From assembly GCA_043812195.1 (NCBI GenBank), contig JBDRML010000025.1, forward strand, positions 1 through 20,280: a stretch of DNA of 20,280 nucleotides, in the 5' to 3' direction. Below, one piece after another: positions 367 to 10,231 of the stretch. The position numbers and the translations under genes were made by a program. Origin of the DNA: Candidatus Woesearchaeota archaeon. Its GTDB lineage: Archaea > Nanobdellota > Nanobdellia > SCGC-AAA011-G17 > PNOQ01. Position 1 is the first letter of the stretch. Each line of letters opens with the position of its first letter. The notes beneath the pieces are model-generated. The model had not been told where the DNA came from and ran no database searches. It was given only the letters and a program-made list of their open reading frames with translations.

Positions 367-401
367 TGGGGCTGCGAGGATTTGAACCCCGGTTGGCAGG
401 T

Positions 402-432
402 TTCTTGCATTCCGGATTGTATCCCAAAAAGA
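402..432 (-). other. Canonical 37/38 tRNA intron (31 nt)
   Basis: BHB: U32-G35 (TTTG) pairs with intron CAAG; bulges GG|T and AA|A; internal GGAT/ATCC stem. Confidence 0.9.
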
Positions 433-467
433 CCCAAACCTGCAGTCATACCAAACTAGACCACAGC

Positions 468-1399: not shown

Positions 1400-1447
1400 G
1401 TCAGTGTTTGGCAACCTTGTAGACCTCTGTTGTAATCATAAAATGGT
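1400..1447. repeat. Dispersed intergenic repeat, copy 1 (partner at 10132-10179)
   Basis: 39/48 nt identical to copy 2; core CAACCTTGT(A/C)GACCTCTGTTGTAAT 24/25 identical; adjacent to TTTATAAA at 1386-1393. Confidence 0.8.
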
Positions 1448-1477
1448 GTTATAAAAAATCTTACTACTCAAAGAACT

Positions 1478-3035: not shown

Positions 3036-4160
3036 TTAATCTATAAACTCAATACCTAGCTCTCTTTCTATATCTTTCTGCTTTTCAGCTTTCATAGCAG
3101 GAGTAACTTTGCCTCTTATCTGTGGGCTTGAAACACCAGTAACAATTATTAAGACTCTCATTGTTTTATCCAAATCTTCTGAAATCTGTGCCCCCCAAAT
3201 AAGCCGTGCATCATCATCTAATTTTTCAGAAACACATTCAACGACTTTCTTAGCTTCTTCAAGAGTCATATCAGATCCTCCAAAAATATTGATTAGAGCA
3301 CCATTAGCTCCAGATACATCAACATCCAAAAGGGGATTATTAAGTGCTTTTTCAACAGCCTCAACAGCTCTATTCTCAGTGTCAGATTCACCCACACCAA
3401 TCATAGCTACACCCCCCTTTCCCATGACAGTTCTAATATCAGCAAAGTCTAAATTAACTAATCCAGGTTTAGTTACTAATTCAGCAACACCCTTAACAGC
3501 ATTAGTCAATATTTCATCAGCAACCTTAAATGCAGTATGCAATGGCAAGTCAGGAGCTAATTCTAATAATTTATCATTTGGTATAACAATTAAAGTGTCA
3601 ACAATACTTTCCAATTTCTCAAGTCCAATAATAGCATTTTCATATCTTCTATTACCTTCCATCTGAAATGGTAAAGTTACAATTGCAACAGTTAAAATCC
3701 CTAATTTCTTAGAAATATCTGCGATAATAGGAGCACTTCCAGTTCCAGTTCCACCACCGAGACCACAAGTAACAAACACTAAATCAGCACCCTTTATTAC
3801 TTCTCTCAATTCATGTTCACTCTCTCTGGCAGCCTCTTCTCCAACCTGAGGAACACTTCCAGCACCAAGCCCTCCAGTAATTTCCCTTCCTATCAATATT
3901 TTTCTATTAGCATTAGTATACAAAAGATCTTGAGCATCTGTGTTTACAGCTATAGTTTCAGCACCCGAAACACCAACTTCAGAAAGTCTGTTTATTGTGT
4001 TATTACCAGCACCACCAGTACCAATCACTCTAATTTTTGCTTTTTGTTTAGATAAAATTTCTTCTAATTCTTCATCAATAGCAGTTAATCTACTTGGCAT
4101 CTGCCGTTGCAATTGATTTTCGGAACTCATCCTTATGCTATTAATCATACTATCCATCAT
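3036..4160 (-). CDS. ftsZ: Cell division protein FtsZ
   Basis: [26 protein letters not shown] tubulin signature, NLDFAD. SD GAGGTG precedes ATG ATG at 4160/4157. Confidence 0.98.
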
Positions 4161-6785: not shown

Positions 6786-7523
6786 ATGTTAATAGACGTT
6801 CACACACACCTAGATTTTCCAGACTTCAAAAAAGATTTAGATAAAGTTATTTCTAGATGTAAAAATTTCGCAGTAATAATTTCAAACGGAACAGATCCTG
6901 AAAGCAACAGAAAAGTCTTAGAATTATCAAAAAAATTCAAATTAATAAAACCAGCACTAGGATTTTATCCAACAGATATAGAAAGAGCTACAGAAAAAGA
7001 AATAGATAAAGAAATTGAATTCATAAAAACACAAAAACCAATAGCAATAGGAGAAGTTGGTTTAGATTATTTTGTCGGAAAAAATCCAGAAAAACAGAAA
7101 AAAGCATTTAAAAAATTCATAAAATTAGCAGAAAATCTAAATATACCAATAATAGTTCATTCTAGAAATGCTGAACAAGATACATTAAATGTTTTAGAAG
7201 AATCAAAATATAAAAAAGTAATTATGCACTGTTTCAGCGGAAATGCAGAACAAACAAAGAAAGCTAGCGATTTTGGTTATTATTTTTCTATTCCAACTTC
7301 AATTGTCAGAAACAAATCCTTTAAAAAATTAGTCAAAAGAATTGATATCAAAAATATTTTGACAGAAACAGACGCACCCTTCCTATCTCCATATGAAGAT
7401 AAAAAAAGAAACGAACCATCTTTCATTAAAGAATCTATTAAAAAAATCTCAGAAATAAAAAAAATATCACCAAAAGAAATAGAAAAAAAAATCTATGAAA
7501 ATTATAAAAGAATGTTTAAATAG
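6786..7523 (+). CDS. tatD: TatD family deoxyribonuclease
   Basis: DVHTHLD, IGEVGLDY, VHSRNA, MHCFSG, LTETDAPFL motifs. Confidence 0.95.
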   Translation: MLIDVHTHLDFPDFKKDLDKVISRCKNFAVIISNGTDPESNRKVLELSKKFKLIKPALGFYPTDIERATEKEIDKEIEFIKTQKPIAIGEVGLDYFVGKNPEKQKKAFKKFIKLAENLNIPIIVHSRNAEQDTLNVLEESKYKKVIMHCFSGNAEQTKKASDFGYYFSIPTSIVRNKSFKKLVKRIDIKNILTETDAPFLSPYEDKKRNEPSFIKESIKKISEIKKISPKEIEKKIYENYKRMFK

Positions 7524-7528
7524 GAAGA

Positions 7529-8341
7529 TTATTCTCCTCTTAAAACAGATTGAGCTCGATGAAGCCTTTCTAACTTTTCTCTTGTTTTAGCTTCTTCAGC
7601 TTTAAATTGTGCAATATAGGTTTCCAAATTCGGCGAAGCAGCTCCGCCGCTTATAATTTGTACCCGGCCATAGCCATTAGAGTACAACAGATTGCCGTTC
7701 CTGGCATCCAAGCCGTCATTCCTGCCATGATAAAGCCTCCTGAGACCAGATTGATCATTTGGAGTCCATACTGAAACACCATCATTTGAACTTACTAAAT
7801 TTTCCTTAGAAGAATCATAAGCTACTCTCCCATCTTTTCTTAGGAAAGGTGCTTCAACAACCCTCATATAATCTGTTCCTGTAAATTTAAATCCAAGACT
7901 ATTGTCTGTTCTTTCAACACCTAAACCACTTACAATTAATGGAAGTTTAGAACTTTTCCCTGTTATTTTTAGCACCTCTTGTCTTAGTTCTTCATTTGGT
8001 CCTGGATTTGGATACAATGAAATTCCATCAGTATCAGCATAAGTTAGTCCTTTTTCATGAATTACATCCCAAAATCTAATAACTTGCTCAGGGCTCAATA
8101 ATGTAATATTCCCATTAGTTAATTTTCTTAATTCTTGGTTCATCCCAAGAACTCTTGGAACATTTGAATAAGAAATTGGCTCATCTGCTTTGTGTTTTTG
8201 AATGTATTCTATTCTATCAACACCATTGAATTTTTCATTAAATTTAGCAATAACTTCTTTTCCTAAATCATCATATACAAGATTTCCTATAACAGGAACT
8301 TCTACAACATGATTTCCTCTTAATTGATATTTTTCTTTCAT
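7529..8341 (-). CDS. Putative DGR target protein 1 (variable region, probably C-type lectin fold), with short C-terminal helical extension
   Basis: Paralog of 8358-9122. Contains SGLRRLYHGRNDGLDARNGNLLYSNGYGRV, encoded by the variable repeat. SD GGAG at 8357-8354. Confidence 0.85.
   Translation of the reverse strand: MKEKYQLRGNHVVEVPVIGNLVYDDLGKEVIAKFNEKFNGVDRIEYIQKHKADEPISYSNVPRVLGMNQELRKLTNGNITLLSPEQVIRFWDVIHEKGLTYADTDGISLYPNPGPNEELRQEVLKITGKSSKLPLIVSGLGVERTDNSLGFKFTGTDYMRVVEAPFLRKDGRVAYDSSKENLVSSNDGVSVWTPNDQSGLRRLYHGRNDGLDARNGNLLYSNGYGRVQIISGGAASPNLETYIAQFKAEEAKTREKLERLHRAQSVLRGE
7636..7652 (-). promoter_or_regulatory. Stem-loop 3' of VR1 (candidate DGR cis-acting hairpin)
   Basis: AAGCGGC-GGA-GCTGCTT: 7-bp stem (one G.T), GGA loop, 2 nt after the repeat end. 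Confidence 0.7.
7655..7768 (-). repeat. DGR variable repeat VR1 (candidate IMH at 7655-7669)
   Basis: 98/114 nt identical to 8391-8504; all 16 mismatches at codon positions 1 or 2. Confidence 0.88.
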
Positions 8342-8357
8342 TATTAATTATATCTCC

Positions 8358-9122
8358 TTATTTTTTTGCGAGACCCTTCGGGTCTTGAAAAATTTGTACC
8401 CGGCCATCGTCACTAGAGCTCAACAGATCGTCGACCCTGGCACCCAAGACGCCACTCCCGCCACGACAAAGCCTCCTGAGACCAGATTGATCATTTGGAG
8501 TCCAAACATATCTTGCTCCTTTATCTTCTATTGCACAGGATTCTAGACTATTTGTTTTTGGATTATATCTTACATATCCCTCTTGTCTTAGCCACTCTGC
8601 CTCTTTTGGTTCTTGAGTAAGACCCTTCTTTCTTTTAAATCTAAACTTTTGATCATTATCAGCAGCATATTCAAACCCCAATCTAGGAACAACAAAGGGA
8701 ATTTTTGGGTTTCTTATTCCCATTATATCCATAACTTCTTGCCTTAGGTTTTCATTAGGACCTTCATTAGGATATACTACAATAGAATTTGTATCTGCAT
8801 ATGTTGAACTTACTTCTGGAATAACTCCTAATTCTAAGAATCTAATTACTTCTTCAGGTGACAATAAGTGAATATGACCGTACATTTTTGGGTCTAATTC
8901 TGCTAATTTTTGATCAATAAATAATGCTCTAGGAACATTTGAATAAGAAATTGGCTTGCCTTCTTCAACATTAGTAAGAGAAATTCTAGGAGCTTTTTCA
9001 AATTCTTTGTTTAATTCATCTATAATTCTCTTTCCTAAATCATCATATAAAAGATTTCCAACTTTTGGTAAACCCTTTGGATTTTCTACAACTACATTTC
9101 CTTGTAAATTATATTGTGTCAT
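8358..9122 (-). CDS. Putative DGR target protein 2 (C-terminal variable region, probably C-type lectin fold)
   Basis: Paralog of 7529-8341 (shared GNLxYDDLGK, PISYSNVPR, LLSPE, TYADT, YPNxGPNExLRQEV). Ends SGLRRLCRGGSGVLGARVDDLLSSSDDGRVQIFQDPKGLAKK. Confidence 0.85.
   Translation of the reverse strand: MTQYNLQGNVVVENPKGLPKVGNLLYDDLGKRIIDELNKEFEKAPRISLTNVEEGKPISYSNVPRALFIDQKLAELDPKMYGHIHLLSPEEVIRFLELGVIPEVSSTYADTNSIVVYPNEGPNENLRQEVMDIMGIRNPKIPFVVPRLGFEYAADNDQKFRFKRKKGLTQEPKEAEWLRQEGYVRYNPKTNSLESCAIEDKGARYVWTPNDQSGLRRLCRGGSGVLGARVDDLLSSSDDGRVQIFQDPKGLAKK
8371..8385 (-). promoter_or_regulatory. Stem-loop 3' of VR2 (candidate DGR cis-acting hairpin)
   Basis: AGACCC-GAA-GGGTCT: perfect 6-bp stem, GAA loop, 5 nt after the repeat end. 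Confidence 0.75.
8391..8504 (-). repeat. DGR variable repeat VR2 (candidate IMH at 8391-8405)
   Basis: 98/114 nt identical to 7655-7768; 14 of 16 mismatches have A in one copy on the coding strand. Confidence 0.88.
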
Positions 9123-9152
9123 TTTTTATATGTTTTTAGCATAATTAATCTA

Positions 9153-9160
9153 TTTATAAA
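9153..9160 (-). promoter_or_regulatory. TATA box upstream of the two DGR-target genes
   Basis: TTTATAAA about 30 nt upstream of ATG 9122. Confidence 0.55.
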
Positions 9161-9201
9161 TCTTTTGATTATAACACCACTACTAAGAAACAACAAAATC
9201 T

Positions 9202-9804
9202 CTAAATCTCAATAACTTTCCCAACCGGTCCTGGATTAATCAATAAAGTATTTCCCAATTTATCCAACTTACCTTCACTTTCATGAATATGTCCAGAAAT
9301 ATACAAATCAGGTTTTAATTTAATAATAGCCTTTCTATAAGATTTACTACCTACATGACCAAGTCCAGGAATTCTATCTAATTCAGTATTATAAGGCGGA
9401 GCATGAGTAACAATTATTAACTTTTTATAAGTATCAGCCATTTTTGAAAACTTATCTACTATCTCTTCAAATTCTTTATCCACAACTTCAAAAATACTTT
9501 CACCATATCCTAAAAAACAGTATTCACCAAGAGAATAGAGTCCTCTATTAAAATTAATTACAAAATCTTTATATTTTTTACACATTTTTTTGAATTCAGG
9601 TATATCTTCATGGTTTCCAGGGATCATAAGAAGAGGTTTACCTGCTTCTTTTAGTTTTTCAATCAATTTAATTAAATCTTCTCCCCAATCACACAAATCT
9701 CCAGCACATATCATTAAATCAACATTTCTCTTTTTTGCAGTTCTGACTATATTATCCAATAGAGCTAAATTTCCCTGTATATCCGAAAATGCTAATATTT
9801 TCAT
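9202..9804 (-). CDS. Calcineurin-like metallophosphoesterase (Icc-related)
   Basis: SDIQG, AGDL, PGNHE, THAPP, SGHIHE, INPG motifs. Confidence 0.92.
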   Translation of the reverse strand: MKILAFSDIQGNLALLDNIVRTAKKRNVDLMICAGDLCDWGEDLIKLIEKLKEAGKPLLMIPGNHEDIPEFKKMCKKYKDFVINFNRGLYSLGEYCFLGYGESIFEVVDKEFEEIVDKFSKMADTYKKLIIVTHAPPYNTELDRIPGLGHVGSKSYRKAIIKLKPDLYISGHIHESEGKLDKLGNTLLINPGPVGKVIEI

Positions 9805-10131: not shown

Positions 10132-10179
10132 GCCGGTGGTTGTCAACCTTGTCGACCTCTGTTGTAATTATGGAATAGT
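10132..10179. repeat. Dispersed intergenic repeat, copy 2 (partner at 1400-1447)
   Basis: Same orientation as copy 1. Contains palindrome GGTTGTCAACC and tandem GGTCGACAA/GGTTGACAA 9-mers on the minus strand. Confidence 0.8.
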
Positions 10180-10231
10180 TATCTAAAAACCCCCAAAAAC
10201 TATATAAATCCAAACATAAACCACTTTCAAG

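What the first reader, a model, noticed from the sequence alone, without database searches (positions are those of the whole stretch)
7655..8504. Two tandem paralogs with adenine-specific variable repeats: DGR targets with no RT or TR in the window
Seen: the genes at 7529-8341 and 8358-9122 are clearly diverged over most of their length but share a 114-nt block (7655-7768 vs 8391-8504) that is 98/114 identical. The differing codons are TAT/TGT, CAT/CGT, AGG/GGG, AAT/AGT, GAC/GGC, GGC/GTC, GAT/GGT, AAC/GTC, GGC/GAC, AAT/GAT, TAC/AGC, AAT/AGT, GGC/GAC and TAT/GAT. All 16 changes are at codon positions 1 or 2, every changed codon is non-synonymous, and 14 of 16 changes have A in one copy. The other two fit an AAY template codon. 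Established: DGRs mutate template adenines, favour AAY codons, and occur in DPANN archaea with C-type lectin-fold targets. Inference: both genes are diversified from one shared template located elsewhere, since no reverse transcriptase or template repeat is visible in these 20 kb. They sit between housekeeping genes (tatD and a phosphoesterase) as a remote target cassette.
Basis: partly seen in the sequence, partly recalled or inferred. Interest (0 to 1): 0.92.

Follow-up and report, generated by a model that had tools for sequence, protein, structure and literature searches.

The report
Archaeal hypervariable lectin genes missing their template
Two neighbouring genes of a tiny groundwater archaeon carry a protein tip that was rewritten by a diversity-generating retroelement, but the template that wrote it is not in the assembled genome; this kind of partial element is already known in such archaea.

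Summary
Genes 7529-8341(-) and 8358-9122(-) share a 114-nt block with 16 differences, all at codon positions 1 or 2. Third positions differ at 0 of 38 codons inside the block and 95 of 199 outside it.

The DGR reading of the variable stretch is strongly supported.
- Four natural alleles vary at 22 sites. 20 of these are adenines in real template repeats that sit beside reverse transcriptase genes in related genomes G010 and G021 (Fisher p 1.5e-11).
- The proteins model as C-type-lectin-like folds.
- Each variable repeat ends in an IMH-like motif followed by a GC hairpin.

The genome has one canonical DGR on another contig: RT, RT-16 RNA, template and two targets. Its template cannot have written these repeats, with 30 mismatches at non-adenine positions.

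No cognate template was found in the 938-kb, 90%-complete assembly, nor in the metagenome, viral or genome collections.

So this is a "partial DGR", as described for Nanoarchaeota in 2015. I put about 0.5 on it being orphaned and about 0.38 on it being served in trans by an unassembled template. It is a new member of a known kind, of moderate interest.

The parts
8358..9122 (-). Gene B, 254 aa, upstream member of the tandem pair. A DGR-type variable protein that ends 11 codons after the variable repeat.
   Evidence: ORF. 50% aa identity to gene A. No Pfam family at E<=1.
7529..8341 (-). Gene A, 270 aa. A DGR-type variable protein with a C-type-lectin-like fold and a C-terminal helix (residues 239-267) after the variable repeat.
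   Evidence: ORF. AlphaFold2 model with mean pLDDT 93.2. VIA-align best rows are C-type lectin/FGE-type folds, including three solved DGR variable proteins, Z 5.4-7.6.
7655..7768 (-). VR-A: the 114-nt block shared with gene B. The sites seen to vary lie at 7672-7738.
   Evidence: A second natural allele differs at 13 sites within 7672-7738.
8391..8504 (-). VR-B: the 114-nt block shared with gene A. The sites seen to vary lie at 8403-8474.
   Evidence: A second natural allele in run X3 differs at 12 sites within 8403-8461.
7660..7669 (-). IMH-like 3' end of VR-A (CGGGTA core). Template repeats of relatives and of the C29 DGR read CGAATA at the same place.
   Evidence: Sequence. The same GG-versus-AA contrast is described for nanoarchaeal DGRs (PMC4372165, passage).
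8396..8405 (-). IMH-like 3' end of VR-B.
   Evidence: Sequence.
7631..7649 (-). GC-rich hairpin (8-bp stem, 3-nt loop) inside gene A, 10 nt after the IMH-like motif.
   Evidence: DNA fold, not significant on its own (z -1.03). The one allelic change here (7640) falls in the loop.
8371..8385 (-). GC-rich hairpin (6-bp stem, GAA loop) inside the last codons of gene B.
   Evidence: DNA fold, not significant on its own (z -0.96). The same hairpin follows the variable repeat of G010 (z -2.03).

Best explanation
Shown: the two genes encode C-type-lectin-like proteins. The last ~29 codons of the fold were written by a diversity-generating retroelement, and both copies came from one template.

How it works, from established DGR biology: an RNA copy of a template repeat is reverse-transcribed with random bases put in opposite adenines. 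The cDNA then replaces the variable repeat, guided by the IMH-like end and the hairpin.

Shown: related genomes hold that type of template, and in each relative inspected it lies directly downstream of the target gene(s), with the reverse transcriptase gene following it in four of the five. Here a TatD gene abuts gene A's stop codon instead. The only DGR found in this genome, on another contig, has a non-cognate template.

Inferred, my committed reading: the pair is a severed 'partial DGR' (targets, variable repeats and cis elements only). It is no longer being rewritten in this genome and keeps the last written versions.

Odds: DGR origin of the repeats about 0.93; orphaned now about 0.5.
For: DGR origin:
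- There are 16 differences at codon positions 1 or 2 and none at position 3. The other 98 of 98 block positions are identical, while the rest of the genes differ at 48% of third positions.
- Four natural alleles (window A and B, a second A allele in runs X1-X3 and in a JGI contig, a second B allele in X3) vary at 22 sites of 93. 21 of these are at codon position 1 or 2.
- 20 of the 22 sites are adenines in the real template repeats of G010 and G021, against 7 adenines among 62 constant sites (Fisher p 1.5e-11). For G031 the figure is 17 of 22 (p 1.6e-7).
- Relatives show the layout target(s), RT-16 RNA, template, RT.
- The fold is C-type-lectin-like and includes matches to solved DGR variable proteins.
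- The IMH-like end and hairpins are present.

Severed or orphaned:
- No cognate template was found in the own assembly. A masked scan gave a best non-VR hit of 45/98. blastn with relatives' templates and with the inferred template found none.
- The assembly has only one RT and only one RT-16 RNA.
- A framework motif found only this locus in 241 million metagenome records, nothing in viral contigs, and only G019's template in genome contigs.
- VR-B is identical in the window, X1, X2 and the JGI contig. The second VR-A allele is identical in four data sets.
- That allele sits in a tract of raised divergence: 14 further differences inside gene A against 6 in about 3.9 kb outside it. This looks like recombination rather than fresh homing.
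- Decayed copies exist here (copy C) and in G043.
Against: - Both ORFs, both IMH-like ends and both hairpins are intact, and no ordinary mutation separates VR-A from VR-B. Any orphaning must therefore be recent.
- The bin is only 90% complete and holds no contig under about 2.1 kb. RT cassettes of this lineage often lie on contigs of 1.4-2.5 kb.
- Relatives carry 1 to 4 RT genes per genome, so a second cassette could simply be missing from the bin.
- The runs were available only as contigs, which hide rare variants. Within-sample hypervariability was not testable.
- One variable site (8403, third codon position, C/T) and one site that is G in relatives' templates do not fit by proxy.
- The 21 nt upstream of the expected template start are also identical between A and B, although their adenines never vary. 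This is unexplained.
Confidence: 0.5

Rival explanations
1. Same DGR origin, but the pair is still diversified in trans. A cognate template lies in the ~10% of the genome that is not in the bin, on a short unbinned contig, or on a mobile element. It may have its own RT, or it may be used by the RT on contig C29.
For: - ORFs and cis elements are intact.
- 98 of 98 constant positions are identical between the two repeats.
- At least two alleles of each repeat exist in nature.
- The bin is 90% complete with a smallest contig of about 2.1 kb.
- Many RT cassettes of this lineage sit on 1.4-2.5 kb contigs.
- Relatives hold 1-4 RT genes each.
- Contigs in X1 break at both repeats (table 8).
- Trans action on distant targets is established for DGRs (PMC5758913, passages).
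Against: - No template was found in the assembly, in the metagenome collection that holds the sister strain's 12.5-kb contig, or in viral contigs.
- The same alleles recur in data sets from several studies.
- Among the best 120 of over 7254 RT homologs, none carries an N-terminal extension matching the inferred template, apart from G019's own.
Confidence: 0.38
2. The repeats are diversified by the DGR found on contig C29, using its own template repeat.
For: It is the only RT in the assembly. It looks functional: a 418-aa open frame, and 14/14 and 16/16 mismatches of its two adjacent variable repeats lie at template adenines. Its repeats have the same 29-codon length and the same kind of IMH-like end.
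Against: The template differs from VR-A at 45 of 87 positions and from VR-B at 50 of 87. In each case 30 mismatches are at non-adenine template positions.
Confidence: 0.02
3. No retroelement is involved. Gene conversion between the paralogs homogenised the block, and diversifying selection then changed surface residues.
For: The block is flanked by diverged sequence. The 21 nt at its 5' end are identical without any variation. A recombination-like tract surrounds the second VR-A allele.
Against: Selection does not explain why 20 of 22 variable sites coincide with adenines of templates in other genomes. It also does not explain the absence of synonymous change, or the IMH-like end and hairpin shared with complete cassettes.
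Confidence: 0.03

Closest known systems
Partial DGRs (target gene, VR and cis elements only) of DUSEL4 Nanoarchaeota, Paul et al. 2015, Nat Commun 6:6585 (PMC4372165; section 6 and passages read)
   Same: Both are small DPANN-type archaea with several DGRs. The target genes show adenine-type variation at sites without an RT. The IMH reads GG where the template reads AA. A trinucleotide-loop hairpin lies inside the target gene. The targets have no sequence family. That paper left open the same alternative: fossil, or diversified remotely.
   Different: Here the two targets are tandem paralogs written from one template. The cognate cassette type can be seen intact in related genomes. Natural alleles from several metagenomes are on hand.
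Remote (non-adjacent) DGR targets, e.g. Treponema denticola; survey of Wu et al. 2018, NAR 46:11 (PMC5758913; passages read)
   Same: The variable repeats lie far from any RT. Trans action is accepted for DGRs.
   Different: Remote targets are defined by a matching template in the same genome. None was found here.
Solved C-type-lectin-fold DGR variable proteins: TvpA (2y3c), TaqVP (5vf4), nanoarchaeal AvpA (5ioo)
   Same: The predicted fold aligns with them (Z 6.2, 6.5 and 5.4). The variable residues lie at the C-terminal end of the fold.
   Different: There is no detectable sequence similarity (Pfam none; PDB profile search none; Foldseek none at E<=0.001). The family is small, with 133 representatives among 1.84 billion.

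Membership tests
Diversity-generating retroelement (complete cassette) | DGR-type reverse transcriptase at the locus or in the genome | tested here: met
   None in the window. One in the genome, on contig C29 (PF00078, 88.7 bits, 418-aa open frame). It carries LGNLTSQ and YVDD motifs (sequence). That these motifs mark DGR RTs is recalled, not tested.
Diversity-generating retroelement (complete cassette) | Cognate template repeat differing from the variable repeat only at template adenines | tested here: not met
   Not found in the 938-kb assembly or in three collections. The C29 template has 30 non-adenine mismatches. By proxy only, 20 of 22 variable sites are adenines in the templates of G010 and G021.
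Diversity-generating retroelement (complete cassette) | Variable repeat at the 3' end of a target ORF, with variation avoiding third codon positions | tested here: met
Diversity-generating retroelement (complete cassette) | IMH at the end of the VR, non-identical IMH* in the template, GC-rich inverted repeat downstream | tested here: inconclusive
   The motif and hairpins are present at the expected places in all 7 of 7 repeats folded, and they match complete cassettes. Single hairpins are not better than shuffles (z from +0.29 to -2.03), and the own IMH* is unknown.
Diversity-generating retroelement (complete cassette) | Hypervariability within populations confined to these sites | tested here: inconclusive
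   Two alleles of each repeat occur across samples, differing at adenine-type sites. Only contigs were available, so within-sample diversity was not measured.
Partial DGR / DGR fragment (Paul et al. 2015) | Target gene with adenine-type VR and cis elements, with no RT or template at the site | tested here: met
   A TatD gene ends 5 nt from gene A's stop codon.
C-type-lectin-fold variable proteins | CLec/FGE-type fold with the variable residues in its C-terminal part | tested here: inconclusive
   The model is confident (pLDDT 93.2). Nearly all of the 50 listed VIA rows are C-type lectin or FGE/EgtB-type by title, including three DGR variable proteins. However, the best Z is 7.6, which the tool rates as middling, and Foldseek found nothing at E<=0.001.

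The most novel reading that the evidence does not exclude
The pair is kept hypervariable by a template that is not part of the cell's own chromosome. The template could be on a virus, a plasmid or another short mobile element that carries only template and RT. Alternatively, the C29 RT could serve a second, separately encoded template. Targets and diversifier would then be inherited apart.
Probability: 0.1. Interest if true: 0.65.

Novelty: new member of a known kind. Interest (0 to 1): 0.33.

Why it matters
Whether target-only "partial DGRs" in DPANN archaea are fossils or are served in trans has been open since 2015. This locus is a convenient test case. The cognate cassette type is known from relatives, about 21 diagnostic sites are defined, and at least five public groundwater data sets hold the locus with two alleles per repeat. 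It also annotates a small unnamed protein family (133 representatives, no Pfam) as C-type-lectin-like DGR variable proteins. Otherwise it is an ordinary, if well-documented, DGR target pair.

Tried and rejected
- Pfam on both proteins: no family at E<=1.
- PDB profile search: only chance-level xylose isomerase, E 2.5.
- Foldseek against PDB: nothing at E<=0.001.
- Motif scan of viral contigs: 0 matches. Genome contigs: only G019's template. Metagenome contigs: only the same locus of a sister strain.
- Search for the template as an N-terminal extension of RT proteins. Of the best 120 of at least 7254 homologs, 8 share at least one 5-residue word with the inferred template translation. None shares more than 5 words except G019's own. 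This was not exhaustive.
- Hairpin folding gave no significant z-score on its own.
- Run X4 has no cover over 8416-8718. I do not read this as absence.
- ARAGORN found no tRNA in the window.
- A permissive Rfam scan of the window gave only the weak tRNA match.
- The repeat finder on a minus-strand reference returned an error and was not repeated.
- Supplementary tables of the DGR surveys (PMC5758913, PMC8144416) were not opened. They may already list this cassette type or protein family.

Full report
**1.

The window is a whole contig (C25) of a 938-kb assembly in 45 contigs, 90% complete. Genes A (7529-8341, minus strand, 270 aa) and B (8358-9122, minus strand, 254 aa) are tandem paralogs, 16 nt apart. 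They are about 50% identical in protein.

They share a block, 7655-7768 and 8391-8504, that is 98/114 identical. Five are at codon position 1, eleven at position 2 and none at position 3, and all change the residue. Outside the block the aligned genes differ at 95 of 199 third positions. Inside it they differ at 0 of 38. This is not chance, and it is not ordinary paralog divergence.

**2. What wrote the block**

The own genome holds a third, more diverged copy on contig C29 (copy C). It also holds a complete DGR about 70 kb further along that contig:
- an RT gene (PF00078, 88.7 bits);
- upstream of it, a match to the Rfam family RT-16 (RF03019, 51.3 bits, gathering score 50);
- an asparagine-codon-rich template repeat;
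- two adjacent target genes. Their repeats differ from that template at 14 and 16 positions, every one a template adenine.

These targets are distant members of the same protein family as A and B (19-21% identity in alignment A2). Their repeat has the same 29-codon length.

That template cannot have written the window's repeats. It differs from VR-A at 45 and from VR-B at 50 of 87 positions, 30 of them at non-adenine positions in each case.

**3. Relatives show the cognate cassette**

A DNA search with the block in 60 related genomes found matches in 6: four of the same family and two of the same order.
- In G019 the layout is a B-like repeat at the contig start, then an A-like 270-aa gene, then RT-16 RNA (91 bits), a template and the RT.
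- G010, G021 and G031 have one or two targets followed by the template and the RT. G043 has target and template, but a different ORF where the RT would be.
- The non-coding stretch between target and template is conserved among the five.
- The templates of G010 and G021 are 72 and 70 of 84 positions identical to the template inferred for the window.

**4. Natural alleles**

Logan contigs of four groundwater runs were laid on 6800-9800.
- X4 carries the window's alleles where it covers them.
- X1, X2 and X3 carry another VR-A allele, with 13 differences at 7672-7738.
- X3 carries another VR-B allele, with 12 differences at 8403-8461.
- A 12.5-kb JGI metagenome contig holds the same second VR-A allele and the window's VR-B.

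Over the four alleles, 22 of 93 positions vary, 21 of them at codon position 1 or 2. 20 of the 22 are adenines in the real templates of G010 and G021, against 7 adenines among 62 constant positions (Fisher p 1.5e-11). For G031 the count is 17 of 22 (p 1.6e-7). The two misfits are 8403, a synonymous C/T change, and one site where the relatives' templates have G.

This is the DGR signature, tested against templates that were not used to define the sites. Kin are not independent, so the p-values overstate.

**5. Cis elements and protein**

Both repeats end in a CGGGTA-type motif where all templates seen read CGAATA. A GC hairpin lies 10 nt (gene A) and 10 nt (gene B) further on, inside the ORF. 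All 7 repeats folded have such a hairpin. None is significant by itself (z from +0.29 to -2.03).

The same GG/AA contrast, and trinucleotide-loop hairpins inside the target gene, are described for nanoarchaeal DGRs (PMC4372165, passage).

The protein family is small, with 133 representatives at E<=0.001 among 1.84 billion, and has no Pfam family. A model of gene A from a 63-sequence alignment is confident (pLDDT 93.2). Foldseek finds nothing at E<=0.001.

The search that aligns every representative chain lists almost only C-type lectin and FGE/EgtB-type chains. The best is 1byf at Z 7.6. The list includes the DGR variable proteins TaqVP (5vf4, Z 6.5), TvpA (2y3c, Z 6.2) and nanoarchaeal AvpA (5ioo, Z 5.4). 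By title I could not classify 5aoh and 8oks. That EgtB, PvdO and PorK-type chains share the FGE/CLec-like fold is recalled. The tool rates Z under 8 as middling, so the fold call is probable, not proven.

Gene A has an extra C-terminal helix (residues 239-267) that gene B lacks.

**6. Where is the template?**

It was not found in the assembly:
- A scan of every position of both strands for the 98 constant positions gave 98/98 for A and B, 70/98 for copy C and at most 45/98 elsewhere.
- blastn with relatives' templates and upstream RNA, and with the inferred template, hit only A, B and C.
- tblastn with three RTs hit only C29.
- RT-16 occurs once.

It was not found in public collections either. 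A 33-letter framework motif matched only the sister-strain contig in the metagenome collection, nothing in viral contigs, and only G019's template in the genome collection.

Against reading this as loss:
- The bin lacks about 10% of the genome and holds no contig under about 2.1 kb.
- Many RT homologs of this lineage are known only from contigs of 1.4-2.5 kb.
- Relatives carry 1 to 4 RT genes each. Only 5 of 24 other family members have any.

For loss:
- In each of the five relatives whose loci I inspected, the template lies directly downstream of the target gene(s), and the RT follows it in four of them. Here TatD ends 5 nt from gene A's stop codon.
- VR-B is identical in two strain backgrounds, and the second VR-A allele is identical in four data sets.
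- That allele lies in a tract of raised divergence. There are 14 further differences within gene A, against 6 in about 3.9 kb outside it. This looks like an imported recombination tract rather than fresh homing.
- Decayed copies exist. Copy C is a 112-aa ORF joining the first ~65 codons directly to a repeat-like tail. A G043 paralog has a stop inside its repeat.

I put 0.5 on orphaned and 0.38 on still served in trans.

**7. Comparison and novelty**

Paul et al. [quoted passage not shown] They left open whether these are fossils or are diversified remotely (PMC4372165, section 6 read).

Remote targets with a matching template are common in the survey of Wu et al. (45 of 372 DGRs; PMC5758913, passage). 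Roux et al. note that metagenome surveys cannot see remote targets (PMC8144416, passage).

Sources name close RT homologs as Woesearchaeota or Nanoarchaeota. The window has an archaeal Cdc6/Orc1-type gene.

So this is a new member of a known kind. It is well documented, with a usable set of diagnostic sites and public alleles, but it is not surprising to a specialist.

**8. Unexplained**

The 21 nt upstream of where relatives' templates begin (7748-7768 and 8484-8504) are also identical between A and B, including third positions. Their adenines never vary in four alleles. Either the lost template reached further 5' and selection removes variants there, or a conversion event is superimposed.

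Noticed in passing
L011 7088-10098 (= G000:C29 about 89087-92097): A complete DGR in the same genome: two tandem targets (287 and 258 aa), an RT-16 RNA match, an Asn-codon-rich template and an RT. All 30 template-repeat mismatches are at adenines.
   Followed up: yes
L003 1309-1647 (= G000:C29:18686-19024): Copy C is a 112-aa ORF that joins the first ~65 codons of the family directly to a repeat-like tail. It lies between an enolase-like and a radical-SAM-like ORF, which I named by eye and did not scan. It has synonymous changes in the framework and no template. It is probably a decayed target.
   Followed up: partly
L029 about 1400-1440 and L027 about 3870-3900: The template repeats of G019 and G043 carry a similar A/T-rich insertion of about 18-24 nt that their variable repeats lack. 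Indels in multiples of 3 between template and repeat are reported in the literature (PMC5758913).
   Followed up: no
L027 4243-5316 (G043:C6): Downstream of a target and template, where the RT is expected, lies a 357-aa ORF on the other strand with a C-terminal Cys-rich motif. It looks like a transposon-type nuclease by eye, and I did not scan it. The contig ends there.
   Followed up: no
window 1404-1457 and 10136-10189: A ~40-54-nt element just downstream of TATA-like boxes. It holds two short palindromes and has at least six further partial copies on other contigs of the genome. There is no Rfam match.
   Followed up: partly
window 371-467 (-): A weak Rfam tRNA match, 97 nt long (30 bits, gathering score 29). 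ARAGORN does not call it. It may be an intron-bearing archaeal tRNA.
   Followed up: partly
window 8290 to 9084 (run X4) and 8507-8637 (run X3): Contigs of related populations differ here. One joins the 5' parts of A and B, skipping 793 nt with 21 other letters between them. Another replaces 129 nt upstream of VR-B with 126 other letters. These are structural variants of the pair in nature.
   Followed up: no
window 7557-8021: Between the window and a sister-strain contig, 27 of 33 differences in 4 kb fall in this 465-nt stretch of gene A, 13 of them in the variable repeat. It looks like a recombination tract.
   Followed up: partly
L021 1564-2208 (G043:C29): A family member whose ORF stops inside the repeat, on a contig without an RT. 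It is 82% identical in DNA to the target on G043:C6. This is another decaying remote copy.
   Followed up: partly
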